From contig CAZENF010000002.1 of NCBI GenBank assembly GCA_964513645.1, positions 73,409-137,408 of the forward strand: a DNA stretch of 64,000 nucleotides, read 5' to 3'. The notes below the pieces were generated by a model. That model was given only the letters and a program-made list of their open reading frames with translations, ran no database searches and was not told where the DNA came from. The DNA comes from an uncultured Candidatus Saccharibacteria bacterium. GTDB lineage: Bacteria > Patescibacteriota > Minisyncoccia > 2-02-FULL-40-12 > GWA2-44-9. The position numbers were made by a program, and so were the translations under genes. Each line of letters opens with the position of its first letter. The first letter of the stretch is position 1. Of this stretch, positions 3,701 to 38,238 are shown piece by piece.

Positions 3701-4168
3701 GATGATATGCCAAACGCTTTCTATATAGTTATTCTCATAGGTTATGTATGGATGGTCGAGGTCAAGCCAAAAACCCATTTTCCTGGTCATGTCTTCCCAT
3801 TCGGTCTTATATTTCCAGACACTCGCTTTAGCCTTCTTGTTGAATTTTCCTATTCCGTAATCTTCGATATCTTTCTTTTTCTTAAAACCAAGTTCTTTTT
3901 CTATTTCTATTTCGACGGGTAAGCCGTGCGTATCCCAACCGGCCTTACGCAAAACAAAAAAGCCCTGCATGGTCTTATAGCGACAGATAAGGTCCTTGAA
4001 AGCGCGAGCTAAAAGATGGTGGATGCCCGGCCGACCGTTGGCAGTCGGTGGTCCTTCAAAAAAAACGAACCTTTTGCCTTTCTTCCTGTTCTCTAATGAT
4101 TTTTGAAAAGTATCGTTATTGCGCCAAAATTCGAGTATTTTATGCTCTGTTCCTTTAAAATCGTACAT
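716..4168 (-). CDS. ileS: Isoleucine--tRNA ligase, type-2 (eukaryote/archaea-like), with a histidine-phosphatase-like insertion
   Basis: HIGH-type motif PGIHHLLARA, KMSKSKGN, a CP1 editing domain, and the type-2 signatures SRERYWGTPLP, C-x2-C, DLHRPYID and DVWFDSG. The track ORF extends to 4237, but the conserved N-terminus MYDFKGTEHKILEFW begins at the ATG 4166-4168. The upstream 69 nt is read-through of a hairpin element that re-creates an in-frame ATG at 4235-4237. Confidence 0.9.
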   Translation of the reverse strand: MYDFKGTEHKILEFWRNNDTFQKSLENRKKGKRFVFFEGPPTANGRPGIHHLLARAFKDLICRYKTMQGFFVLRKAGWDTHGLPVEIEIEKELGFKKKKDIEDYGIGKFNKKAKASVWKYKTEWEDMTRKMGFWLDLDHPYITYENNYIESVWHIIRQIWDKKLLYQAHKVVPFCVRCGTSLSSHEVAQGYKKVKEKSVYIKFKVKTGNSHVKRGDYILAWTTTPWTLPGNVALAVGKNIDYVLVRKFSENLVIAKDLIQKVLGSDYEVVGEFKGKDLAGLIYEPLFDIKELKSNTSYQVYEAGFVSTEDGTGVVHTAVMYGEEDYVLGTKLGLPKVHTVDEQGRFTGVGQDLDGMLVKSKDKPTEEKTTSKIIEYLNKNNLLFKEEEYEHDYPFCWRCDSPLLYYAKNSWFIKMSAVNKEIMANNQKINWVPENIKEGRFGQWLAEGKDWAFSRERYWGTPLPAWKCQKCGDVKVVGSVEEMEKLSASDPVKNNRYIVLRHGYTTRDEAGKMIISSDLKLDKYHLTKEGEKQAERNAQKIKNNYDIDLIFSSPFLRTAETAEIVSKTLHLKVTSDERLREISHGSCDGLPHKVCSVEDLRRTIDFKAHVTGESWNDVRTRMSDFMQEMENKYSGKNILIVSHGDPLWILTCMGKGMTGREIEDNARKDNYPGVAFCGEMKWRKIPRNEIGELDLHRPYIDSVSLKCDECGASMKKIADLIDVWFDSGAMPYAQWHWPFENKKMFEEQFPADFIVEAVDQTRGWFYTLLAISTLLGKGSSYKNVMSLGHVLDDKGKKMSKSKGNVVSPFEVMDKVGADAARWYFYTLNQPGEYKLFAMKDVEAKLKGFISTLENCVRFYELYGEGSKNFTHTSKTSNLLDKWIISRLNVLIAEVTTALDKYDPTTATRAIEKFTVEDLSNWWLRRSRKRKEALGLLKFLILETAKLIAPFTPFVSEEIFHNLKSKTSVHLEDWPKADKKLIDVKLEKEMEEARNVIASGLAVRKEKQLKVRQPLRSAITKRTSKFSKDIESLVKEELNVKGLTYDAKQESGITFDTVLDKALIHEGYARELMRQLQDMRKEAKYRLDEKVLGHWHSEDKDIIEAVEQWTEEIKKDVLLEKFESGPANKKYDIEKEFELAPQKKIWIGVTK

Positions 4169-4287
4169 CCCGTTAGAAGTAGCCCGCCCGAGGTCATTGA
4201 CCGCGTAAGCGCGGGCGAGACTTCTAACGGGATACATCCAATAATTATAAATTATCCAGAGGAAAATTCAACTAAAACCTGGACTAT

Positions 4288-5961
4288 TTACATCTTTTTT
4301 GGCGCCGAGATCCCCATCAGAGAAAGGCATTCGCCAATAACAATAGCTATCGCCGAACATAAAGCTACTCTGGCCTTTTCTATTTTTTTGTCATCCCCGC
4401 CTGCTCGCCTCGCTGAAGCATCGGCGGAGCGGACCGGCGAAGCAGGATTTACAACTCTATGTTTCTCATAAAAATTATGGAACTCCGAAGCCAGTTCAAA
4501 GGCATATTGAGCCAAGCGGTGGGCCTGATAGTTAAGAGCTATTTCTTCTATCAATTCCGGGAACTTTGACATTTTCCGCATCAACCCAAATTCTTCTTTT
4601 TCTTTCAAACCCTCGAACACAGAAGGGTCATTTTTGGGTCTAAGTTCAGTAAGGTTTAATTTTCCAAAAATACTGTTAAGCCGGGCGTTAGCATACTGAA
4701 TGTAATAGACTGGGTTCTTTTTCGATTCTTCCTTGGCCAAGTCAACATCAAATTCCATATGAGTATTGAGATCCTTGACCAGAAAAAAATACCGGACAGC
4801 ATCCTTGCCAACCTCTTTAAAAAGTTCATCCAAAAGAACGAACTCCCCTTTTCTTTTGGACATCTTTTGTTTTTCTCCTCCGGCTTTCAAGGAAACCAGC
4901 TGGTGGAGAAGTATCTCAAGTTTGCCGTCTTCGTAGCCCAAGGCTCTGACTCCGGCCTTTAAGCGGTGTACATCGCCGTGATGGTCGGTTCCCCAAATAT
5001 TTATCGCTTTTCCGAAACCACGAATAAATTTATTCCTGGTATAGGAAATGTCGGCCATAAGGTACGAGTAGGATTTGTCGCTTTTGACCAATACCGCATC
5101 GCGTTCACCTGAATCATCTATCTTTAGCCATTCCGCACCTTCTTTTTCATAAACATGCTCGCCTTTTTTGAGCATCTTTAAAGTGTTATCGATTTCGCCC
5201 GAGTCATATAATTTTTTCTCGGAGAACCAGGTATCAAAATCTATATTAAGTTTCGACAAAGAAGCTTTGGCGGAATCGATCATTTTTTTCAATGCAAACT
5301 CGCGGCAAACAGATGTCAGTTCGTCGAAATTCTCTATGTCTTTGACCAAACCCTTATCATCCATCTCTTTGGCGACATCGATGATATATTCTCCCTGGTA
5401 AAGATTGTCAGGAAAATCTATGGTTTTTCCTTTTAAGCGAAGGTAGCGGCGGGCAACTGATTCACCCAATAGCTTAACCTGGTTCCCGGCATCATTGATG
5501 TAATATTCTTTTGTTATCTCGTAGCCGTATTTTTTAAAGATTGCGGCCAGAGTATCACCGAAAGCTGCCGCCCGGATGTTAGCAACCGTTAAGGGACCGG
5601 TGGGGTTGGCAGAAACAAATTCAAGATTTATGCTTAATTTTTTATTTTCTCCTGAACCATAATTTTCTTTTTGTTCCAGTATCTTAACCAGTTCTTGCCT
5701 TAAAAAATCTTCAGATAAGTAAAAATTAACAAAACCGTCGGCGGGTTCTATTTTGCTGAAATATTTGCTTAATTCTTTATTTTCTAAAAATTCTTCAGCT
5801 AAACGACCAGCTACATCCTTAGGATGCTGTTTCTCTTTTTTAGCCAATACAAAAGCAAGATTTATGGAATAATCCCCCATTTCATTGTTTGGCGGGGTCA
5901 GAACATCAAAATCAACACCAGGATAGAGTTCTTTAATCTTGTTTTCTATCCACATTTTCAT
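4288..5961 (-). CDS. argS: Arginine--tRNA ligase
   Basis: Arg_tRNA_synt_N-like N-terminus, core NPTGPL motif and a C-terminal DALR-type anticodon-binding end (…LSLMGISAPKKM). KMSKRKG is present. The HIGH position reads TVAN instead of H-x-G-H. A C-terminal in-frame insert lies at 4391-4446. Confidence 0.9.
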   Translation of the reverse strand: MKMWIENKIKELYPGVDFDVLTPPNNEMGDYSINLAFVLAKKEKQHPKDVAGRLAEEFLENKELSKYFSKIEPADGFVNFYLSEDFLRQELVKILEQKENYGSGENKKLSINLEFVSANPTGPLTVANIRAAAFGDTLAAIFKKYGYEITKEYYINDAGNQVKLLGESVARRYLRLKGKTIDFPDNLYQGEYIIDVAKEMDDKGLVKDIENFDELTSVCREFALKKMIDSAKASLSKLNIDFDTWFSEKKLYDSGEIDNTLKMLKKGEHVYEKEGAEWLKIDDSGERDAVLVKSDKSYSYLMADISYTRNKFIRGFGKAINIWGTDHHGDVHRLKAGVRALGYEDGKLEILLHQLVSLKAGGEKQKMSKRKGEFVLLDELFKEVGKDAVRYFFLVKDLNTHMEFDVDLAKEESKKNPVYYIQYANARLNSIFGKLNLTELRPKNDPSVFEGLKEKEEFGLMRKMSKFPELIEEIALNYQAHRLAQYAFELASEFHNFYEKHRVVNPASPVRSADASARRAGGDDKKIEKARVALCSAIAIVIGECLSLMGISAPKKM

Positions 5962-10051: not shown

Positions 10052-10774
10052 TTATTTAAAATATTTCTCCCAGAAATCTGGGCATTTAATTTTGAGTTTT
10101 ATAACTTCGTCTGTAGTTGCAGTTCGGAATTCTATTTCCGTCGCGCAAAGCGCGACGGAGTTGTCTTGAGTTTTTTCTTTACTGCCGTATTTTGAATCCC
10201 CGACTAAGGGATGCCCGGTGTGCGAAAATTGCGCTCTTATCTGATGGAATCTGCCGGTTATAAGTTTTATTTTCAGTAGAGAATAATTTTTATTTGATCT
10301 CACGACCTCGTATTCAAGTTCCGACATTTCATAATTTTCTTTGGCCGAATCCGAAACCGATGCCTTTCGGATGTTCTCATTCTTTGCCAGATAATGAATA
10401 AGTTTTCCTTTTTTCGACTCTAACTCTCCTTCGGCAACGGCATAATATATTTTTTGTATTTCGTTATCTCTGAATTGTTCAGATAATCTTGAAGCACCTT
10501 TTGAAGTTTTACCGAAAAGCACTATACCTGATACGTTCCGGTCGAGACGATGAACAAGGCCGAGAAACACGTTCCCGGGCTTTTTATATTTTTGTTTAAG
10601 ATATTCCTTAACCTTGTCGAGCAGACTCTTATCCCCGGTTTTGTCTCCCCCGTCTGCTCGCCTCGCTGAGGCTTCGCCGGATCGAGACAACGAGGCAGGC
10701 TGAACAAGTAAACCAGCCGGCTTATACACCGCAATTATGTGGTTATCTTCGTAGAGTATATTTAATTTAGACAT
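10052..10774 (-). CDS. RluA-family pseudouridine synthase
   Basis: VYKPAGLLVQ…LVHRLDRNVSGIVLFGKT contains the catalytic Asp motif HRLDxxTSG. An 18-aa in-frame insert (PASLSRSGEASARRADGGD) is encoded by the GC-rich element at 10644-10699. Confidence 0.8.
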   Translation of the reverse strand: MSKLNILYEDNHIIAVYKPAGLLVQPASLSRSGEASARRADGGDKTGDKSLLDKVKEYLKQKYKKPGNVFLGLVHRLDRNVSGIVLFGKTSKGASRLSEQFRDNEIQKIYYAVAEGELESKKGKLIHYLAKNENIRKASVSDSAKENYEMSELEYEVVRSNKNYSLLKIKLITGRFHQIRAQFSHTGHPLVGDSKYGSKEKTQDNSVALCATEIEFRTATTDEVIKLKIKCPDFWEKYFK

Positions 10775-12526: not shown

Positions 12527-12979
12527 TTAACGAGTAACAGATATAGGCGTGGTGATCTCGGCTCCAGGAGCGTCGACAGTTATTCTGCCTCCGCCTGCCG
12601 CTTGCATTATCCTGTATCCGGTATCGGCCGCCGTTCCTGTTGAGGGGTCCATGACCATGGTTGAAACATAGGTCGGGACGATGCATGAAGCAAGGTCAAT
12701 GTTGCCGGCTCCTGAACCGACTGCGGTCAAGGCAGCAGGCAATGTGACGGTTACAGCACCGCAGGTTGAACTCCAGACTCCTTTGTTATCAACCATTCTT
12801 TGCCAAACACCATTTAAAATAGTGTTGACGTTGGAAACTCTCTGGGTATCGCGGGCTTGGGCAAACTGTCTGGCCGGGTTCAAAGCAACGATAACCACGG
12901 CTGCCAAGATGGCGATAATACCGATAACGACCAAAATTTCTATAAGGGTGAATCCTGACTGTTTATTGTAATTTTTCAT
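12527..12979 (-). CDS. Type IV major pilin (PilA-like), copy 1
   Basis: N-terminal class III signal QSGFTLIEILVVIGIIAILAAVV (G|FTLIE prepilin cleavage and N-methylation motif). Confidence 0.8.
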   Translation of the reverse strand: MKNYNKQSGFTLIEILVVIGIIAILAAVVIVALNPARQFAQARDTQRVSNVNTILNGVWQRMVDNKGVWSSTCGAVTVTLPAALTAVGSGAGNIDLASCIVPTYVSTMVMDPSTGTAADTGYRIMQAAGGGRITVDAPGAEITTPISVTR

Positions 12980-13151: not shown

Positions 13152-13604
13152 TTACCTGGTAACAGTTATCGGGGTGGTAATTTCAGCACTCGGTGCATCA
13201 ACGGTAATTCTACCGCCTCCGGCCGCTTGCATAATACGGTAGCCGGTGTTAGCCGCCGTTCCTGTTGAGGGGTCCATGACCATGGTTGAAACATAGGTCG
13301 GGACGATGCATGAAGCAAGGTCAATGTTGCCGGCTCCTGAACCGACTGCGGTCAAGGCAGCAGGCAATGTGACGGTTACAGCACCGCAGGTTGAACTCCA
13401 GACTCCTTTGTTATCAACCATTCTTTGCCAAACACCATTTAAAATAGTGTTGACGTTGGAAACTCTCTGGGTATCGCGGGCTTGGGCAAACTGTCTGGCC
13501 GGGTTCAAAGCAACGATAACCACGGCTGCCAAGATGGCGATAATACCGATAACGACCAAAATTTCTATAAGGGTGAATCCTGACTGTTTATTGTAATTTT
13601 TCAT
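13152..13604 (-). CDS. Type IV major pilin, copy 2 (tandem duplicate)
   Basis: Identical to copy 1 except for 3 aa (D/N, G/S, S/T). The 625 bp duplicated unit includes the upstream region. Confidence 0.8.
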   Translation of the reverse strand: MKNYNKQSGFTLIEILVVIGIIAILAAVVIVALNPARQFAQARDTQRVSNVNTILNGVWQRMVDNKGVWSSTCGAVTVTLPAALTAVGSGAGNIDLASCIVPTYVSTMVMDPSTGTAANTGYRIMQAAGGGRITVDAPSAEITTPITVTR

Positions 13605-33055: not shown

Positions 33056-33080
33056 AAATCCCCTCTCGGGGATTTTTATT
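33054..33080 (+). terminator. Rho-independent terminator after rplT
   Basis: aaaatcccc-tctc-ggggattttt. Confidence 0.6.
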
Positions 33081-33304
33081 TATTGTTCGAGTTTTCGTAT
33101 TTCTTCTTCTATCTTCTCGAGCTGTTCAGCATCGTCCGGATGAGACTCTGTACTCATTCCTGTTTCGACCTGGGCCTTCCAATCTCTAAGCTCGGCCAGT
33201 CTTTTTTCTTTATCCTCGGGTGTCATCTCTTCGACGCTGGGAGTCAGCTGGGTATTATCATCCGCCGCCTCACTGCCGAACATATTTTTAAATGGGTTTT
33301 CCAT
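33080..33304 (-). CDS. Hypothetical small acidic protein
   Basis: ORF only. Its ATG directly abuts a conserved hairpin element (33305-33412). Confidence 0.3.
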   Translation of the reverse strand: MENPFKNMFGSEAADDNTQLTPSVEEMTPEDKEKRLAELRDWKAQVETGMSTESHPDDAEQLEKIEEEIRKLEQ

Positions 33305-33412
33305 CCCGTACGAAGTAGCCCTTGCAGGGTCTGAAGGTCAAATATTTGCCATTCACATCCACACAAGAACCCAATAACTACCCCGTCCAAAGTTTTCACT
33401 ACTTCGTACGGG
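33305..33412. repeat. Hairpin element with 16 bp terminal inverted repeat ATCCCGTACGAAGTAG…CTACTTCGTACGGGAT
   Basis: A perfect 14-16 bp inverted repeat separated by about 80 nt. It belongs to the same family as 4169-4231 and 42173-42202. Confidence 0.6.
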
Positions 33413-33510
33413 ATCCATACACTAATTTTATCAAATTAATCCGGAGCGCAAACTTTTTTTGTTCACAACTCTATTCAAAATAAAAAGCCGACAAATTGTC
33501 AGCTAATATC

Positions 33511-33903
33511 TTATGGATTCACTAATTGGAAATTCCCGCTACCAACAGTGAAGATTTGAGCGTTATCCTGAAGTACTATCTGGTAAACTCCCGGCAACAA
33601 AGAAATGTTCTGCAGAGTCGAGCCAGCGGTCCAGGTCTTAGTATCCGTGAATAGTGCGTTAGTTGAGATTAGGTAAGCGTTATAACCGTCATAAACGTAA
33701 ACATTCACAAAATCCCCGGTCGGAAAACCGGTACAGCCGGAACAGGTCCAGCTTATAATTACCGAAGCGCCCATTCTGTAAGTTTCGCCTGCCAGAGGAC
33801 TGCTTATCGTCATTGTTCCGGACGGTGAAGGTGAAGTAGGAGATTTGGAACAACCAAGAAAGAACAGACTATTTAAAAGAACAAAAACTGTAAAAGCTTT
33901 CAC
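33511..33903 (-). CDS. Hypothetical lipoprotein/secreted protein
   Basis: Signal peptide with a lipobox-like LGCS. Confidence 0.35.
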   Translation of the reverse strand: MKAFTVFVLLNSLFFLGCSKSPTSPSPSGTMTISSPLAGETYRMGASVIISWTCSGCTGFPTGDFVNVYVYDGYNAYLISTNALFTDTKTWTAGSTLQNISLLPGVYQIVLQDNAQIFTVGSGNFQLVNP

Positions 33904-33966
33904 ATTTTTCCATACATATGAAAGTGGCGATATATTAGCATTCTGGACGGAGGATGTCTATAAATT

Positions 33967-33996
33967 AAAAGGTGCGGGAGTTCCCGCACCAAAAAG
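33967..33996 (-). terminator. Rho-independent terminator (usable on both strands)
   Basis: aaaaggtgcggga-gt-tcccgcaccaaaaag. Confidence 0.55.
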
Positions 33997-34007
33997 AATC
34001 GTGAAAA

Positions 34008-34367
34008 TTATAACCCTCTAAACTGGAGCAAATTCTGAGCATCTGCTCGTAACAGGATCTCTTTAACTTCTTTAACTTGTTTTACAACTTTACGACGGAA
34101 GAAAAGTCCAAATTTCTCGATAACTTCACGGGTTTGAAAAACAATCAGACTCGGCCCTTCTGGGATTATTCTGACCTTATCCATTCCCTTATCGATACCA
34201 CAATCCACACTTGCACCAAGAGTGACCGAAGCGTAAATGTCGACAGAATCACCCGTTTCCGCGTCTCCGTAGACTATGGTAATACCATGACCCATCGCGG
34301 CTGATGAAAAAGGAAACATAAGCAATATCGGATATGACTTTTCGCCGGTTCCAAGCTGGGTATTCAT
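34008..34367 (-). CDS. Hypothetical protein
   Basis: ORF only. A weak resemblance to a small beta-barrel was considered but not accepted. Confidence 0.3.
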   Translation of the reverse strand: MNTQLGTGEKSYPILLMFPFSSAAMGHGITIVYGDAETGDSVDIYASVTLGASVDCGIDKGMDKVRIIPEGPSLIVFQTREVIEKFGLFFRRKVVKQVKEVKEILLRADAQNLLQFRGL

Positions 34368-34470
34368 TCTCCGCTTCTCCTTTAAAGGATCTGACTGGTT
34401 ACATTTATATAATATAATAGAAATAATGTCAATAGGCCTGCGCTATTCTTTGAGAATTAAAACGCCGGAA

Positions 34471-34683
34471 TTATCCAGCGTTTCTTTTCTTGATCCTATT
34501 GAAAACATATTTAAGAACAGATCGGATGACCAAGGTCCAATATACAACCGTAAATCCGATAAGCAGGATTGGATCGTTTTCCCTAAATGCGATTAAAAAA
34601 TAAGGTCCTCCAAAGACCATGTACACAACAATCACCGATAGAGGAGCTGGCAAAGTGTGTAGCCAGTCCAAAAAGCGGCTCAT
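34471..34683 (-). CDS. Hypothetical small membrane protein
   Basis: Two predicted TM helices. Confidence 0.3.
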   Translation of the reverse strand: MSRFLDWLHTLPAPLSVIVVYMVFGGPYFLIAFRENDPILLIGFTVVYWTLVIRSVLKYVFNRIKKRNAG

Positions 34684-35004
34684 CTGATCCTCGCAATTTA
34701 AGTTAGCTTTAAGATTATAAAGGAATATGAGTTGTGTGTCAATGGATATGGCCGACGGGATTTGGCTACAAGTTTGAATCTCATCGGATCACTCGACTCA
34801 ACTCGTGGCCTCTCACGGTTTAAATCTGCTGACCGAAACATCGCTTCGGTTTTAAAATCCCGTACGCAAGAACTCAAATCCTCGCTCGGAGCCCCCCCCC
34901 TCTCTAAAAGCAGAATCAAAACCACCCATTGCAGGTGGTTTTGATAGGATGCGCACCTCGGTCTACTGGCCTCGGTACTTCCTCACTCATCTTTCGGTCG
35001 CAGC

Positions 35005-35130
35005 GCCAATAGACCCGTCTTGACTCGGTCGATCCGAGGCGGACCCGTCTCGCCAAAGGCGAAGCCGAGGCGGAGAACACTGGAAAACTTTGTTACTGGA
35101 TATCTATAGTTATTTTATCAGAAACCCGCA
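35005..35130. repeat. Composite GC-rich intergenic repeat, copy A
   Basis: Shares gccaatagacccgtcttgactcggtcgatccgaggcggaccc(g/a)tctcgccaaaggc… with copy B. Shares gagaacactggaaaactttgtt…ctatagttattttat with copy C. Internal palindrome ctcggtcgatccgag. Confidence 0.7.
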
Positions 35131-35230
35131 ATTGTTGATAAATCATTGACATTTCATGCTATATTTGATAACATTGGTATACAAATGGCTTAGGCCTCGC
35201 CCCCGCCCTCAAAAGCGGGGGAGAACTTTT

Positions 35231-35635
35231 TTAGGGCTGTTTTTTCTTAAAATTTACCTGAGTAATTGCTTCAAACAAATTATTAAAGACATCTTCATCA
35301 AGTATGCCGACTTTATTGGCTAATCTTTTACGGTCTATAAACCTGACCTGCGACAAAATAGCTGTTGCCTCTCTGCCGTCAACTTCTCCCACAACAAAAT
35401 AATACTTACCCTTCTTTTTTGTTGTAGTTAGGGGCACAATAAGACAAGCGTCTAAGTTAAATTTCTTTATTATAACTACTGGCCTTTGAAAATCTTTACC
35501 TGTTCCGTCTTGTTCAAAACCAATATTGACTCCGAGCGAACACCACCAGACTTCCCTCTCGTGAAAAAATACCTCGCTTTTTCGAACATCAAGATTTTCT
35601 TTAATGCCATGCCACTTCTTAAAATCTTTATTCAT
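35231..35635 (-). CDS. mazF: MazF/PemK-family endoribonuclease toxin
   Basis: …REVWWCSLGVNIGFEQDG…RPVVII…SQVRFIDRKRLANKVGILDEDVFNNLFEAI is closely parallel to the NdoA/MazF pattern …EQIRTIDKQRLTDKIT.LDDEMM.KVDEAL. The start is chosen at MNKDFKKW. The track ORF extends to 35794 by reading through repeat copy B. Confidence 0.7.
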   Translation of the reverse strand: MNKDFKKWHGIKENLDVRKSEVFFHEREVWWCSLGVNIGFEQDGTGKDFQRPVVIIKKFNLDACLIVPLTTTKKKGKYYFVVGEVDGREATAILSQVRFIDRKRLANKVGILDEDVFNNLFEAITQVNFKKKQP

Positions 35636-35681
35636 TCCGTTATTAAAACAAAAACTGGATTTAATTACCAGTTTTATCGGG

Positions 35682-35865
35682 CCAATAGACCCGTCTTGAC
35701 TCGGTCGATCCGAGGCGGACCCATCTCGCCAAAGGCCAGCTTCAACCCAATGAGACAAGCGAAGCCGAGGCGGAGAACACTGCCTGCCCGCCAAAGCCTT
35801 GGCGTAGGCGGGGAAAACTTTGTTAATACGGATTCATACATATTGTATTAGAAATCCATTGAATA
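35682..35865. repeat. Composite GC-rich intergenic repeat, copy B
   Basis: Same modules as copy A, plus an inserted block cctgcccgccaaagccttggc that is the reverse complement of a block in copy C. Confidence 0.7.
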
Positions 35866-35937
35866 TGCCAGAATTAACATTAATATCAAAACAGAAAACC
35901 TCGCACCAGAAAGACACGAGGTCTCCTATGTACGAGG

Positions 35938-36576
35938 TTATGAGTTGGAATGCTCCAGGTGTTCTGAGGCTACTTGGTACAGCCCTGATTCTTCATCGGC
36001 AACATGCTGAATCATGGCCCAATCGTTTTGGTCCAGCTTATTTTCGAAACGAAGGGCTTTTTGCAGAAAGGCTTCATTCTCTTCAAGATGCAAGCAGACA
36101 TCCTTATAATACATTCTGTTCGCCACTTGCATTAGCTCATTGACAGTCGTTGCCGACTTGATGGCCTTGAGCAATCGAGAGTCAGCCTCATCTTCGTTAT
36201 ACCTAGTCAAACGCTCTACAACCCAGCCGTAAAGGTATTTTGGCCAGATAATACTGTCCACCAAGAGGCCAACTGTGATGAAAATTACGCCCCAGAGGAC
36301 TTTGTGATTCTTGCAGAACTCGTCTAAGGCAGTGGCAACCTTGACGGTCATTTCTTGCTCTCGACTATTGATGGGATAGTGGACGGTCCTTTCTCCGAAA
36401 ACTTCTTTTTTGATACCCTTCTTTTTCAGAAGAGTGTCGCCAACCGTATCAAATTCTTCTTCACCAAACAACGCATCCATCAATGCACCCCAGCCCTTAA
36501 AAACAGATACTGTATGGGCTATGCCAATGAGAAAACTAACCAGAAGATACATCTCGATATACCACATAAAACACAC
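35938..36576 (-). CDS. Hypothetical membrane protein
   Basis: ORF with 2-3 TM helices. No motif recognised. Confidence 0.4.
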   Translation of the reverse strand: MCFMWYIEMYLLVSFLIGIAHTVSVFKGWGALMDALFGEEEFDTVGDTLLKKKGIKKEVFGERTVHYPINSREQEMTVKVATALDEFCKNHKVLWGVIFITVGLLVDSIIWPKYLYGWVVERLTRYNEDEADSRLLKAIKSATTVNELMQVANRMYYKDVCLHLEENEAFLQKALRFENKLDQNDWAMIQHVADEESGLYQVASEHLEHSNS

Positions 36577-36763
36577 CCCCTCAAAGAACTGATTATCTAT
36601 ATTATACCACTATTTTAAGTAATTACAATAGCAACCAAGAGACACTGTTTCTGGTGTTTTTTGTAAGTTAATTTTTCCATTCCCCTTGGCCCCCGCCAAA
36701 AATTAGTTTTCGGAAAACTTAAAAAATTAAAGTAATACCTTAATTCCTTGGTCATTTCATCCT

Positions 36764-36880
36764 GACCCCGCCTGTGCCAAGGCTTTGGCGGGCAGGCATT
36801 CTCCTTGAGCAGGGCCAATAGAGAACACTGGAAAACTTTGTTCCGGGAGCTCTATAGTTATTTTATTAGGAATCCCTTTG
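36764..36880. repeat. Composite GC-rich intergenic repeat, copy C
   Basis: gccaaggctttggcgggcagg…gggccaatagagaacactggaaaactttgtt…ctatagttattttat. Confidence 0.7.
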
Positions 36881-37309
36881 CTCCAGATTCGGCTTATTTT
36901 TGAAGAAAAAAAGCTGAATAAGATTAACAACGCCCAAGAACATTAAGAAATCGATAAAGAGCCCCAGGGGGTTAAAATAAACATTACATATTTCATCATT
37001 AATTCTGTCCCAATGGCCATTTACATCCACAGGCAATGGATTAAATGTTTCATAAAATGTTGACTGCAAAGGGGGACAAAATATTGGTTCAAAATCAATC
37101 GAATTTATATGAGGAAAATTGGACGAACTTTCAGCTTCAGATATTTTATTTCTATGCCAGATTATTAGATAGCTCTCAATCGGTAATTTCAATGTGGGAA
37201 ATTCTAAATATGCATTAACTTTAGCGACAGCAATTAATAACAAAATGGAAGTTATAACTAATTTCGGCTTAAAGAATTTAATCATTTTCAATAACCATCC
37301 TCGCGGCAA
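36866..37309 (-). CDS. Hypothetical secreted/membrane-anchored protein
   Basis: ORF with an N-terminal hydrophobic segment. Confidence 0.35.
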   Translation of the reverse strand: MPRGWLLKMIKFFKPKLVITSILLLIAVAKVNAYLEFPTLKLPIESYLIIWHRNKISEAESSSNFPHINSIDFEPIFCPPLQSTFYETFNPLPVDVNGHWDRINDEICNVYFNPLGLFIDFLMFLGVVNLIQLFFFKNKPNLEQRDS

Positions 37310-37586
37310 GCCGCGAGGTATTACAACAAGGCTAATTGCCCCTTGTGAAGCCTAACGTATTCTTGCTCTTTTCCTTGATTTTTAACATATGTAGTTATAG
37401 CCTCTTCGCTCTTGTGTTTTCCCACGGTTGAAATGAAGTGGACCCCATTCTTAAGACACTGAGTTGATATGTATTTTCATTGTATCAAGACTGCATTTTT
37501 GAGCAAATATCGTCGGCGGCATCTTTAAGGCAGAATGTATCTGCATTGGATTTTCGAGCTTTCCAAACCAAATGCAGATACAAAAT

Positions 37587-37658
37587 CTCAACTAGCAGCG
37601 CCACGGGGAATCGAACCCCGATACCAGCCTTGAAAAGGCTGTGTCCTAACCGTTAGAC
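37587..37658 (-). tRNA. tRNA-Glu (anticodon TTC)
   Basis: Minus-strand sequence GGCGCCA-TC-GTCTAACGGTTAGGAC-A-CAGCC-TTTTCAA-GGCTG-GTATC-GGGGG?TTCGATTCCCC-GTGGCGCT. Cloverleaf with anticodon stem CAGCC/GGCTG, loop TTTTCAA (anticodon TTC) and T-loop TTCGATT. G1·U72. No CCA encoded. Confidence 0.7.
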
Positions 37659-37990
37659 GATGGCGCCATATTATATAAGATTATGTCAAAAATTTTACCG
37701 AAATTCAAGAAAAATGACGGCACGTTGCCGTCATTCAAACCCTTAGGTTAAGGAGTTATTTATCCTTCGACTTGGCTTTCTCCAGCACCCTCTTACAGTG
37801 AAGGAACAGGTTTACCCTTTCGATGATGGTCATCTGGGGTCCCGCCTGAACAATTTTCTCTTCTTTTTCCACCCTTAGGCCTCCTTGAAACTTTCGAGTA
37901 TTATACCACCAAATTAAATTAAAATCAATATCTCTATTGACGTTTATTTTTTTCGTATATAATTAAAGAACCCTTTCAAAGGAGTCAGAT

Positions 37991-38176
37991 ATGAGCCAGA
38001 GTGTTCTTGAGCGAACCAAGGTTGATATACAAGAAGCAATGGAATTGGCGGGAGTTTCTCGGAGAACCATTTACAATTGGTTGCGCGATAACAAGGTTGA
38101 GTATGTCAGAACCGCCGGCGGATGTGTAAGAATTTTCACAGATTCACTCTTCAAAGAAGGCAACAAAGCCCAGTAA
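37991..38176 (+). CDS. Excisionase/MerR-like helix-turn-helix DNA-binding protein
   Basis: AMELAGVSRRTIYNWLRDNKVEYVRTAGGCVRIF, the HTH_17/excisionase-type pattern. A candidate promoter TTGACG…TATAAT lies about 35 nt upstream. Confidence 0.55.
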   Translation: MSQSVLERTKVDIQEAMELAGVSRRTIYNWLRDNKVEYVRTAGGCVRIFTDSLFKEGNKAQ

Positions 38177-38238
38177 CGAACCGGCCCTTGGACCGGTTTT
38201 TAATTGTAAAAATCCGGAGTTTGTTATAATTTTAAGCC

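What the first reader, a model, noticed from the sequence alone, without database searches (positions are those of the whole stretch)
34930..38180. Cassette-like array: small minus-strand genes including a solitary mazF separated by a modular GC-rich repeat family, next to tRNA-Glu and an excisionase-like HTH gene
Three copies of a composite repeat lie at 35005-35130, 35682-35865 and 36764-36880. They share modules gccaatagacccgtcttgactcggtcgatccgaggcggaccc…, …gagaacactggaaaactttgtt…ctatagttattttat, and a block present in opposite orientations in copies B and C. The copies alternate with unrelated small ORFs, all on the minus strand, one being a MazF/PemK toxin with no recognisable antitoxin ORF. 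The arrangement is reminiscent of integron gene cassettes (gene plus attC-like imperfect palindrome; toxin-antitoxin genes are typical cargo), or of MITE-punctuated islets. tRNA-Glu (37587-37658) and an excisionase-type HTH gene (37991-38176) lie about 700 bp beyond the last copy. No integrase is in the window. A plus-strand promoter-like TTGATA…TATATT plus a terminator hairpin at 35196-35230 could alternatively give a short ncRNA (an RNA antitoxin?) opposite mazF.
Basis: partly seen in the sequence, partly recalled or inferred. Interest (0 to 1): 0.6.

Follow-up and report, generated by a model that had tools for sequence, protein, structure and literature searches.

The report
Serine-recombinase insertion scars beside tRNA-Glu
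The three repeats are leftover junctions from small mobile gene cassettes that a large serine recombinase inserted one after another next to the tRNA-Glu gene of a candidate-phyla-radiation (CPR) bacterium, and the lone MazF toxin in one cassette comes with a conserved small RNA gene that may be its missing antitoxin.

Summary
There are three composite repeats (35005-35130, 35681-35865, 36764-36880), found nowhere else in the window, and they alternate with small minus-strand genes.

They are not integron attC sites, MITEs or a structured RNA. The conserved block encodes, on the plus strand, the last ~35 codons (…RANREHWKTLFxxIYxYFIxNP…) of a family of large serine recombinase (LSR) genes. Just before it lies a short core resembling the 3' end of tRNA-Glu.

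In related Paceibacteria the intact LSR gene sits next to tRNA-Glu and reads into it. The detached tail then lies at the far end of the island (locus L056).

The interval between rplT and tRNA-Glu/tsaD is a shared hotspot. It holds arrays of 1-4 tail copies that alternate with single cargo genes, often MazF.

The window has no recombinase, so its array looks like a recombinase-less remnant.

The closest precedents are the Dehalococcoides ssrA islands and SCC elements.

The GC-rich modules are separate hairpin insertions.

Separately, every MazF homologue examined (12 sites) has a conserved convergent promoter, a UUCG hairpin and a terminator that ends at the mazF stop codon. This is a candidate RNA antitoxin.

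The parts
33056..37594 (.). Variable hotspot between the rplT stop and the tRNA-Glu 3' end. It is filled with seven small minus-strand ORFs and three recognisable junction scars.
   Evidence: rplT and tRNA-Glu/tsaD flank arrays of tail copies in L003, L005, L006, L011, L012 and L056. In L013 and L030 an rplT match is held, but no tRNA-Glu or tsaD. Cargo differs between genomes.
35000..35149 (+). Copy A. The tRNA-Glu-like core GCAGCGCCAATAGA lies at 35000-35013. A 61-nt GC-rich hairpin insert lies at 35014-35074. The LSR tail remnant EHWKTLLLDIYSYFIRNPQLLINH* runs 35075-35149.
35146..35174 (+). Conserved sigma-70-type promoter, TTGACA-17-TAACAT with a TG extension, for the small RNA convergent with mazF.
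   Evidence: The -35, the TG and the TAnnnT are conserved while the spacer varies in 7 cassettes. A -10 hexamer sits 6 nt before ACAAAC in three of the four distant loci, and 11 nt before it in L063. The consensus scan also finds it.
35181..35232 (+). Candidate small RNA of about 52 nt: ACAAAUGGCUUAGGCC, then a GC hairpin, then U6. Its 3' end overlaps the mazF stop codon.
   Evidence: Covariance model R1 scores 66.5 bits (E 5e-15) here. Its 12 strong hits in 376 kb all lie at mazF 3' ends. The fold has z -2.65. The second hairpin has six different stem sequences across loci.
35231..35641 (-). Solitary MazF/PemK-family toxin gene (136 aa).
   Evidence: Pfam PF02452 at 5e-12. More than 1000 homologues, mostly in Patescibacteria. 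No adjacent antitoxin ORF here or in L039, L043, L060, L063 or L067.
35681..35865 (+). Copy B. It has the core GCCAATAGA and the same GC insert as A, plus two further inserts at 35737-35758 and 35783-35812. Its tail, from 35812, is degenerate. Its left edge abuts the mazF 5' UTR directly.
   Evidence: The same junction of mazF 5' UTR to core is seen in L039 and L043.
35938..36576 (-). Cargo ORF of 212 aa, no family assigned. It has its own extended -10 promoter at 36628-36601.
36640..36812 (.). Conserved inter-cassette module ('H arm') forming the left arm of copy C. It is interrupted by a GC hairpin at 36766-36796.
   Evidence: Homologous modules occur in L013 (three copies), L032, L033, L039 and L040.
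36809..36903 (+). Copy C. The core GCAGGGCCAATAGA is followed by the LSR tail remnant (R)ANREHWKTLFRELYSYFIRNPFAPDSAYF*.
36866..37309 (-). Cargo ORF of 147 aa, no family assigned.
37595..37667 (-). tRNA-Glu (UUC), the target of this recombinase family. Here it is intact and has no recombinase beside it.
   Evidence: Intact LSRs elsewhere end in …SATGNRTPIPALKRLCPNR, which is exactly the plus-strand translation across this tRNA (window ORF 37480-37656).

Best explanation
**What the repeats are.** They are junction scars left by serial insertion of small integrative cassettes at the 3' end of tRNA-Glu. The enzyme is a large serine recombinase (LSR) whose attachment site lies inside the 3' end of its own gene.

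**What is shown.**
- In the un-split form the LSR ORF ends …KPFDLVAERSISxxG-RANREHWKTLFxxIYxYFIxNP….
- Next to tRNA-Glu the ORF instead reads into the reverse complement of the tRNA.
- The last ~35 codons, together with the core, then lie at the far end of the inserted DNA.

**What is inferred.**
- Recombination happens in the short core GCAG(C/G)GCCA, which matches the tRNA-Glu acceptor end.
- New units join at the tRNA-proximal junction.
- Older units lose their recombinase gene by deletion.
- The result is an array of units, each made of tail, cargo gene and left arm.

**Reading of the window.** Three such scars (A, B, C) separate MazF, a 212-aa ORF and a 147-aa ORF. No recombinase remains. 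The array is therefore probably static unless an LSR is supplied from elsewhere.

**The GC-rich modules.** These are secondary hairpin insertions into or next to the core. They are not part of the recombination unit.

**Weaker inference.** The tail may stay conserved in recombinase-less cassettes for two reasons. It is one half of the attachment site. Its reverse complement (…TGATAAAAT…) also looks like an outward-facing promoter aimed at the neighbouring gene.
For: **The tail belongs to LSR genes.**
- The peptide frame is conserved downstream of the core in 24 distinct copies, while upstream sequence is not conserved.
- Variation is concentrated at codon position 3 (entropy 1.41, against 0.90 and 0.76 at positions 1 and 2). 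Synonymous differences make up 31% in this frame, against 5-8% in the other frames apart from the antisense frame in register with it, which gives 29%.
- P0009 and the L033 ORF join the tail to an LSR C-terminal region. P0193 is a full-length LSR with the catalytic N-terminus and the tail. L056:4028-5551 and P0010 have the Resolvase, Recombinase and Zn_ribbon_recom domains.

**The LSR integrates at tRNA-Glu.**
- In L056 the LSR overlaps tRNA-Glu (5495-5569), and a tail copy lies 5.5 kb away. Both junctions share ATTTGAC..TT.CCATTTGGCAGCGCCA.
- Five intact LSRs end in the translation of the reverse complement of tRNA-Glu.
- Copies in L032, L053 and L003 carry 11-15 nt identical to the tRNA-Glu 3' end.

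**The hotspot and arrays recur.**
- The same rplT…tRNA-Glu-tsaD hotspot and multi-copy arrays appear in many loci.
- The same left arm is joined to tRNA-Glu in L006 but to a tail in L011 and L022.
- The MazF unit is bounded by cores in the window, L039 and L043.
- Repeats are 80-94% identical between genomes whose housekeeping genes are about 70% identical.

**Precedent.** In Dehalococcoides, the gene for the serine recombinase DsiB always overlaps attL or ssrA at its 3' end. The islands lie in tandem, and some lack the integration module (PMC3146451).
Against: - No recombinase is present in the window, so activity here is unproven.
- The window's tRNA-Glu has a 50-nt downstream flank that it shares with L005, and it lacks an encoded CCA. 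Whether that flank is native or cassette-derived is unresolved.
- Classical LSRs recombine only attP with attB. Tandem accretion needs recombination with hybrid junctions, which was not tested.
- The exact crossover dinucleotide is inferred, not shown.
- Copies A and B share an 80-nt near-identical left part that includes the GC insert. This could reflect local duplication or gene conversion rather than independent insertions.
- No circular or empty-site form was observed.
Confidence: 0.8

Rival explanations
1. Integron-type array: the repeats are attC sites recombined by an IntI tyrosine recombinase encoded elsewhere in the genome.
For: The genes lie in the same orientation and alternate with repeats. 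Toxin cargo is typical of chromosomal integrons. No recombinase is in the window, as in CALIN arrays.
Against: There is no R''-L''/L'-R' geometry, and the fold is no better than shuffled sequence. The conserved part is the coding 3' end of serine recombinase genes. The cargo genes have their own promoters. The recombinase found at the homologous position is a serine recombinase.
Confidence: 0.03
2. MITE-like or REP-like dispersed repeats that happened to land between small genes.
For: The GC-rich hairpin modules behave like small insertions. They occur in both orientations, at recurrent positions in the core, and are variable between loci.
Against: The core-plus-tail unit occurs only in the tRNA-Glu hotspot in the window. 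Where flanking genes are held, related genomes show it in the same place. It has no terminal inverted repeats or target-site duplications, and it is homologous to LSR genes.
Confidence: 0.05
3. A structured RNA or 5' leader on the minus strand that regulates the downstream cargo genes.
For: The repeats lie 5' of minus-strand genes. An apparent hairpin CCAGU/AUUGG has a G-U pair only on the minus strand. -10-like elements lie inside the reverse complement of the tails.
Against: There is no Rfam match. The hairpin is broken without compensation in the common CGAATCGAG variant. Variation has a coding pattern with period 3. Insertions of any length are tolerated within it.
Confidence: 0.05
4. The tail copies are not mere scars. 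They are kept by selection in recombinase-less cassettes, either as the half-site that keeps a cassette mobilisable in trans or as an outward promoter for the adjacent gene. This is compatible with the main explanation.
For: Recombinase-less copies remain 80-94% identical across genera. Open tail frames with conserved stops are common. The MazF 5' UTR has no promoter of its own before the junction, and promoter-like sites lie in the reverse complement of tails A and B.
Against: Many copies carry frameshifting inserts or are degenerate (B, L039@168, L040@198). The promoter matches are weak consensus hits.
Confidence: 0.3

Closest known systems
Dehalococcoides ssrA-specific genomic islands (serine recombinase DsiB; McMurdie et al. 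2011, PMC3146451)
   Same: A CcrB-like large serine recombinase integrates at the 3' part of a single-copy t(m)RNA gene. The recombinase ORF always runs across the attachment site into the target or the neighbouring island. Islands lie in tandem, bounded by short repeats of the target's 3' end. Some units lack the integration module.
   Different: Here the target is tRNA-Glu in CPR bacteria. The units are tiny, at 0.65-1.4 kb and usually one gene, rather than 10-30 kb. No six-gene integration module or second small recombinase was seen. The displaced C-terminal codons are themselves strongly conserved, whereas the DsiB tails were described as divergent.
SCC elements and SCC composite islands (CcrAB/CcrC at rlmH in staphylococci)
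   Same: The recombinases are large serine recombinases; the best NCBIfam match of the L056 LSR is CcrB at 1.8e-26, below that model's cut-off. From my own knowledge: SCC elements accumulate in tandem at one chromosomal site, and some elements lack a recombinase.
   Different: The target is a tRNA rather than a protein gene. There is a single recombinase, the units are much smaller, and the attachment site lies inside the recombinase gene.
SSV1-type integration in Sulfolobus (attP inside the integrase gene, target a tRNA)
   Same: Integration at a tRNA gene splits the recombinase ORF, so the two parts flank the inserted DNA. This comparison rests on my own knowledge.
   Different: SSV1 uses a tyrosine recombinase and the split inactivates it. 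Here only about 35 C-terminal codons are exchanged, and the catalytic body stays intact.
Chromosomal integrons / CALIN arrays
   Same: One-gene cassettes in a single orientation, toxin-antitoxin cargo, and arrays without a nearby recombinase.
   Different: There is no attC hairpin geometry and no IntI. The cassettes have promoters, and the conserved junction is a recombinase gene remnant.
Type I toxin-antitoxin loci with 3'-overlapping antisense RNA (txpA/RatA, bsrG/SR4) and type III ToxIN
   Same: A small RNA gene is tightly and specifically linked to a toxin gene that has no protein antitoxin. As in txpA/RatA, the layout is convergent with 3' overlap. ToxN is a MazF-like fold neutralised by RNA. 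These comparisons rest on my own knowledge.
   Different: The toxin is a MazF-family RNase, not a small membrane peptide. The RNA is a single unit downstream on the opposite strand, not repeats upstream of the toxin gene. Function is untested.

Membership tests
Integron gene-cassette array | attC site: an imperfect palindrome with R''-L''…L'-R' arms, RYYYAAC/GTTRRRY cores and extrahelical bases | tested here: not met
   Single-stranded DNA folds of A, B and C on both strands give z from +0.40 to -1.95. Only local GC hairpins form and the ends do not pair. The sequence after GTT is ACTG, CCGG or AATA.
Integron gene-cassette array | IntI-type tyrosine recombinase with attI at the head of the array | tested here: not met
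   No tyrosine-recombinase box-II motif in any window ORF of 100 aa or more (a weak test). The recombinase at the head of the homologous array in L056 is a serine recombinase.
LSR-driven tandem islands at a t(m)RNA gene (ssrA-GI / SCC-like) | Large serine recombinase with Resolvase, Recombinase and zinc-ribbon domains | tested here: met
   Met in related loci: L056:4028-5551 and P0010 carry all three Pfam domains. It is absent from the window itself.
LSR-driven tandem islands at a t(m)RNA gene (ssrA-GI / SCC-like) | The recombinase ORF overlaps the attachment site or target gene at its 3' end | tested here: met
   The L056 LSR overlaps tRNA-Glu. P0182, P0184, P0187 and P0188 end in the translated reverse complement of tRNA-Glu.
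LSR-driven tandem islands at a t(m)RNA gene (ssrA-GI / SCC-like) | Units bounded by repeats of the target's 3' end, in tandem, some without a recombinase | tested here: met
   The GCAG(C/G)GCCA core is present at every junction. L032, L053 and L003 have 11-15 nt identical to the tRNA. Arrays of 2-4 units occur in L013, L016, L030, L033, L042, L039 and the window.
LSR-driven tandem islands at a t(m)RNA gene (ssrA-GI / SCC-like) | Demonstrated excision or integration (circular form, empty site) | not testable with these tools
   This needs read-level metagenome data or experiments.
Type II MazEF toxin-antitoxin | MazF/PemK-fold toxin | tested here: met
   PF02452 at 5.3e-12, 46.4 bits against a cut-off of 23.1.
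Type II MazEF toxin-antitoxin | Adjacent co-transcribed protein antitoxin (MazE/PemI) | tested here: not met
   Repeat B lies directly upstream of mazF, and no conserved small ORF is present. No gene is called between mazF and its larger neighbours in L060, L063 or L067, and the mazF 5' UTR runs straight into the next core in L039 and L043. L065 has a 94-aa gene 148 nt upstream, and L033 has a 66-aa ORF just upstream. Neither was examined.
Type I toxin-antitoxin (cis-antisense RNA) | Antisense RNA gene overlapping the toxin transcript | tested here: inconclusive
   A conserved promoter, two hairpins and a U-tract ending at the mazF stop codon are present at 12 of 12 MazF loci. Transcription and overlap with the mazF mRNA were not measured.
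Type I toxin-antitoxin (cis-antisense RNA) | Small hydrophobic peptide toxin | tested here: not met
   The toxin is a 136-aa MazF-family protein.
MITE | Terminal inverted repeats, target-site duplication and dispersed copies | tested here: not met
   Copies occur only in the hotspot. No other copy of the A, B or C inserts was found in the window or in other loci.

The most novel reading that the evidence does not exclude
The rplT-tRNA-Glu interval of these Paceibacteria may be an integron-like gene-capture platform run by a serine recombinase. One-gene cassettes, each carrying half of an attachment site that doubles as the recombinase's C-terminal codons, would be stacked at tRNA-Glu. The recombinase would swap its own C-terminal tail each time it integrates or excises, which could set directionality. 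In addition, the widespread solitary CPR MazF family may be neutralised by a dedicated convergent small RNA. That would be a MazF toxin with an RNA antitoxin.
Probability: 0.3. Interest if true: 0.75.

Novelty: new variant of a known kind. Interest (0 to 1): 0.55.

Why it matters
CPR/Patescibacteria have tiny genomes, and few mobile elements have been described in them.

- **A route for gene exchange.** A recurring hotspot where a serine recombinase stacks single-gene cassettes (toxins, HicAB, Gp49/HTH-type pairs, methyltransferase-like genes) would be a simple way for these organisms to exchange accessory and defence genes.
- **A possible directionality switch.** The recombinase changes its own C-terminus on integration. 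That offers a testable explanation for how a serine recombinase could set direction without a separate factor.
- **A new toxin-antitoxin pairing.** The MazF-linked small RNA, if it is an antitoxin, would join a type II-like toxin to an RNA antitoxin. It would also explain why more than 1000 MazF genes in this group look 'solitary'.

Tried and rejected
1. **Rfam.** Searches at gathering thresholds and at E≤10 found nothing in the repeats or in the small-RNA region.
2. **tRNA-like or minus-strand RNA reading of the repeat.** The CCAGU/AUUGG hairpin looked attractive but is broken in the common CGAATCGAG variant. ARAGORN finds no tRNA there.
3. **Y1/IS200-like transposase C-terminus.** I considered this from memory of an 'YIxxNP' motif. 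I dropped it once the tail was found fused to LSR bodies.
4. **attC geometry.** Rejected.
5. **GC inserts as a window-wide repeat family.** The A, B and C inserts have no other copies. Two related GC modules at 4381-4460 and 10621-10700 match each other but not these.
6. **An alignment of the 34-aa tail as a protein-search query.** The 88-aa L033 ORF was used instead.
7. **Serine recombinase N-terminal motif by regex.** It found nothing, and it missed the L056 LSR because the pattern was too strict. It was replaced by tblastn and a profile search.
8. **Source-contig look-up for the identical MazF (P0058).** Not on record.
9. **Pairing between the small RNA's 5' end and the mazF 5' UTR.** Only about 5 bp could pair, which is not convincing.
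10. **Literature.** Searches for CPR serine-recombinase islands, or for a MazF with an antisense RNA, found nothing specific.

Full report
**1. Observation**

The three composite repeats are real.
- The repeat finder recovers the shared modules, including the block that is inverted between copies B and C.
- The 22-nt core GAGAACACTGGAAAACTTTGTT and the left module GCCAATAGACCCGTCTTGACTCGG each occur twice. Shuffles predict 0.00 occurrences, and neither appears elsewhere in the 64-kb window.
- The genes between the copies all lie on the minus strand. They are a MazF/PemK toxin (35231-35641, Pfam 5e-12), a 212-aa ORF and a 147-aa ORF with no family match.
- The HTH gene matches HTH_17 and the TIGR01764 'excise' domain.
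- Rfam has nothing for the repeats.

**2. What the repeat is**

Scanning public genomes and metagenomes for the core gave about 27 distinct true copies. All come from Paceibacteria/Yanofskybacteria-like CPR contigs.

Aligning them showed that the sequence to the right of the core, on the window's plus strand, is protein-coding.
- It reads (G)RANREHWKTL(L/F)xxIYxYFI(K/R/Q)NPL…, often with a conserved stop. Sequence to the left of the core is not conserved.
- Variability peaks at codon position 3 (entropy 1.41, against 0.90 and 0.76 at positions 1 and 2).
- Synonymous differences make up 31% in this frame, against 5-8% in the other frames. The one exception is the antisense frame in register with it, at 29%.

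A longer ORF in locus L033 and a full database search tied this peptide to large serine recombinases (LSRs).
- P0009 has the Recombinase and Zn_ribbon_recom domains. It ends …KPFDLVAERSISADCRANREHWKTLFNEIYGYFIRNP….
- P0193 is a full-length 526-aa LSR with the catalytic N-terminus and the same kind of tail.
- The conserved half of the 'repeat' is therefore the last ~35 codons of an LSR gene.

**3. The link to tRNA-Glu**

The left edge of the repeat, TGGCAG(C/G)GCCA…, resembles the reverse complement of the tRNA-Glu 3' end. Copies in L032, L053 and L003 carry 11-15 nt identical to it.

In L056 an intact 507-aa LSR (4028-5551; Resolvase, Recombinase and Zn ribbon domains) reads straight into tRNA-Glu (5495-5569, opposite strand). 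A tail copy sits 5.5 kb away at 12-101. The two junctions share ATTTGAC..TT.CCATTTGGCAGCGCCA and then diverge, one into the tRNA and the other into the tail.

Five further intact LSRs end in …SATGNRTPIPALKRLCPNR or close variants. That is the translation of the reverse complement of tRNA-Glu, and it is the same peptide as window ORF 37480-37656.

The attachment site therefore lies inside the 3' end of the recombinase gene. Integration at tRNA-Glu exchanges the recombinase's last ~35 codons for tRNA-derived ones and leaves the original tail at the other end of the insert.

**4. The hotspot and the arrays**

Six other contigs (L003, L005, L006, L011, L012, L056) place tail copies beside tRNA-Glu and tsaD, and four of them also hold rplT on the far side. 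L013 and L030 hold arrays next to rplT only.
- In L012 the leftmost tail copy follows the rplT terminator directly.
- Arrays of 2-4 tail copies alternate with small genes on the opposite strand in L013, L016, L030, L033, L042, L039, L011, L023 and L006.
- Cargo includes MazF, HicAB and Gp49/HTH pairs.
- The left arms of the junctions fall into recurrent types. Several are decayed LSR 3' ends, ranging from a 402-aa remnant down to about 60 aa.
- One arm type is joined to tRNA-Glu in L006 but to a tail in L011 and L022. That is what recombination at the core would produce.
- The MazF unit is a discrete cassette. In the window, L039 and L043, its 5' UTR abuts the next core directly, and a tail copy precedes its 3' end.
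- The repeats are more similar between genomes (80-94%) than the housekeeping genes are (about 70%).

The window has no LSR, by tblastn and by profile search, and no obvious tyrosine recombinase. Its array is a recombinase-less remnant.

**5. How arrays form (inferred)**

The newest, recombinase-bearing unit sits next to the tRNA, as in L056 and the intact LSRs. Older units keep the tail, cargo and arm but lose the recombinase by deletion. This requires the enzyme to use junctions whose outer half comes from an earlier unit. That is unusual for classical phage LSRs and was not tested here.

The published precedent is close. [quoted passage not shown] The islands lie in tandem at ssrA, and some lack the integration module (PMC3146451). 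The best NCBIfam match of the L056 LSR is CcrB, below that model's cut-off.

**6. GC-rich modules**

The modules that made the repeat look 'modular' are insertions into or beside the core.
- A 61-nt insert is shared by A and B.
- B has two further inserts.
- A hairpin is inverted between B and C.
- Related hairpins (CCTGCCCGCC…GGCGGG) occupy the same positions in copies from other genomes (L039@168, L040@198). Other inserts split the core in L003, L004, L006, L016 and L023.
- They have no further copies in the window.
- They break the tail frame, so they are not part of the recombinase remnant.
- A and B share an 80-nt near-identical left part on either side of the MazF cassette. This may reflect a recent event or gene conversion.

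**7. attC test**

Folded as single-stranded DNA on either strand, A, B and C are not clearly more stable than shuffled sequence (z from +0.40 to -1.95). Only local GC hairpins form and the ends do not pair. There are no integron core sites.

**8. The solitary MazF and a conserved small RNA**

MazF has no protein antitoxin gene in the window. In L060, L063 and L067 no gene is called between mazF and its larger neighbours, and in L039 and L043 its 5' UTR runs straight into the next core. L065 has a 94-aa gene 148 nt upstream and L033 has a 66-aa ORF just upstream. I did not examine either. The family has more than 1000 members, mostly in Patescibacteria.

Between the tail stop and the mazF stop, seven cassettes share a plus-strand promoter: a -35 TTGAC(T/A), a variable spacer, then TGnTAnnnT. 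It is followed by A(U/A)A(C/U)GGCUUCGGCCUCG and a second hairpin whose sequence changes while its pairing is kept.

Four distant MazF loci have no LSR tail and lie in unrelated contexts: a T4SS region, a site next to rplT, and others. All carry the same ACAAACGGCTTCGGCCTG, a GC hairpin and a U-tract ending at the mazF stop codon. A -10 hexamer sits 6 nt upstream of ACAAAC in three of the four, and 11 nt upstream in L063.

All fold the same way (z from -2.6 to -3.9). A covariance model finds 12 strong hits in 376 kb. Every one lies at a mazF 3' end, and one (L043) was not used to build the model.

In the window the predicted RNA spans about 35181-35232. The consensus scan finds the promoter at 35146-35174 and the terminator at 35200-35221.

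I read this as a small RNA gene dedicated to this MazF family. It is most likely an antitoxin, acting either by antisense pairing with the mazF 3' end or by binding MazF directly. I give that about 40%. The simpler alternative is a conserved terminator with a promoter whose role is unknown.

**9. Verdict**

The mechanism differs from the one proposed. The repeats are serine-recombinase attachment junctions that carry the enzyme's own C-terminal codons, not attC sites.

This is a new variant of a known kind of element. The cassettes are unusually small, the lineage is little studied, and the MazF-linked RNA is worth an experiment.

Noticed in passing
window 35146-35232 (+); also L011:3354-3413, L011:4764-4822, L014:2296-2353, L033:3159-3216, L039:1054-1111, L042:517-574, L043:1508-1565, L060:4394-4451, L063:4387-4446, L065:4398-4457, L067:4398-4457: A conserved promoter and a two-hairpin small RNA lie convergent with every MazF homologue examined and end at the mazF stop codon. 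It has no Rfam match and is a candidate RNA antitoxin.
   Followed up: yes
window 36640-36812: A ~160-nt conserved inter-cassette module ('H arm') recurs in L013, L032, L033, L039 and L040. On the minus strand it carries two CCAAGG(A/G)GAATGG boxes and a GGTCA…TGACC hairpin. Its function is unknown. It may be a rearranged LSR 3' end or a leader RNA.
   Followed up: partly
window 35014-35074, 35737-35758, 35783-35812, 36766-36796: GC-rich hairpin inserts lie inside or beside the recombination core. Related hairpins (CCTGCCCGCC…GGCGGG) sit at exactly the same positions in copies from other genomes (L039@168, L040@198). Why the core attracts them is unexplained.
   Followed up: partly
window 35112-35141 (-) and 35842-35889 (-): The reverse complement of the conserved tail codons YFI (TATTTTAT) reads as a -10 box (TGATAAAAT) pointing out of the cassette toward the neighbouring gene. 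MazF has no promoter of its own before the junction.
   Followed up: partly
window 37668-38238, including 37991-38176 (+): The excisionase-like HTH gene lies in a 570-nt stretch between tRNA-Glu and tsaD that is absent from all related loci; those have about 60 nt there, or a GIY-YIG gene in L003. It also matches the PADLOC 'mad1' model (7.5e-8). No link to the array was found.
   Followed up: partly
window 37595-37667 compared with L056:5495-5569, L011:6579-6657 and L012:5940-6014: The window's tRNA-Glu does not encode CCA. tRNA-Glu copies whose 3' end is supplied by a recombinase or cassette arm do encode it (TGGCAG…).
   Followed up: no
window 34714-34742 (-): A perfect TTGACA-17-TATAAT promoter lies upstream of the 70-aa ORF at 34471-34683. 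The ~300-nt non-coding stretch 34700-35005 to the left of copy A has no homologue in any fetched locus.
   Followed up: no
window 4381-4460 and 10621-10700: Two related GC-rich intergenic modules (…CCCG(C/T)CTGCTCGCCTCGCTGA(A/G)GC…) share 31 nt at 90% identity. They are unrelated to the inserts in A, B and C.
   Followed up: no
window 12704-12879 and 13329-13504: Identical GC-rich segments recur at a 625-nt offset, which suggests a tandem duplication or a repeat-containing gene.
   Followed up: no
protein P0013 (893 aa): A highly repetitive protein, with about 12 repeats of a ~66-aa unit, matched the LSR C-terminal query in 12 stretches. It may be a mistranslated tandem array of related DNA.
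   Followed up: no
L057:3452-4660 and L059:1859-2602: In L057 an LSR that lacks its catalytic N-terminus keeps an intact tail and sits inside an array of toxin-antitoxin cassettes. In L059 a second, truncated Resolvase+Recombinase ORF lies directly upstream of the intact LSR.
   Followed up: no
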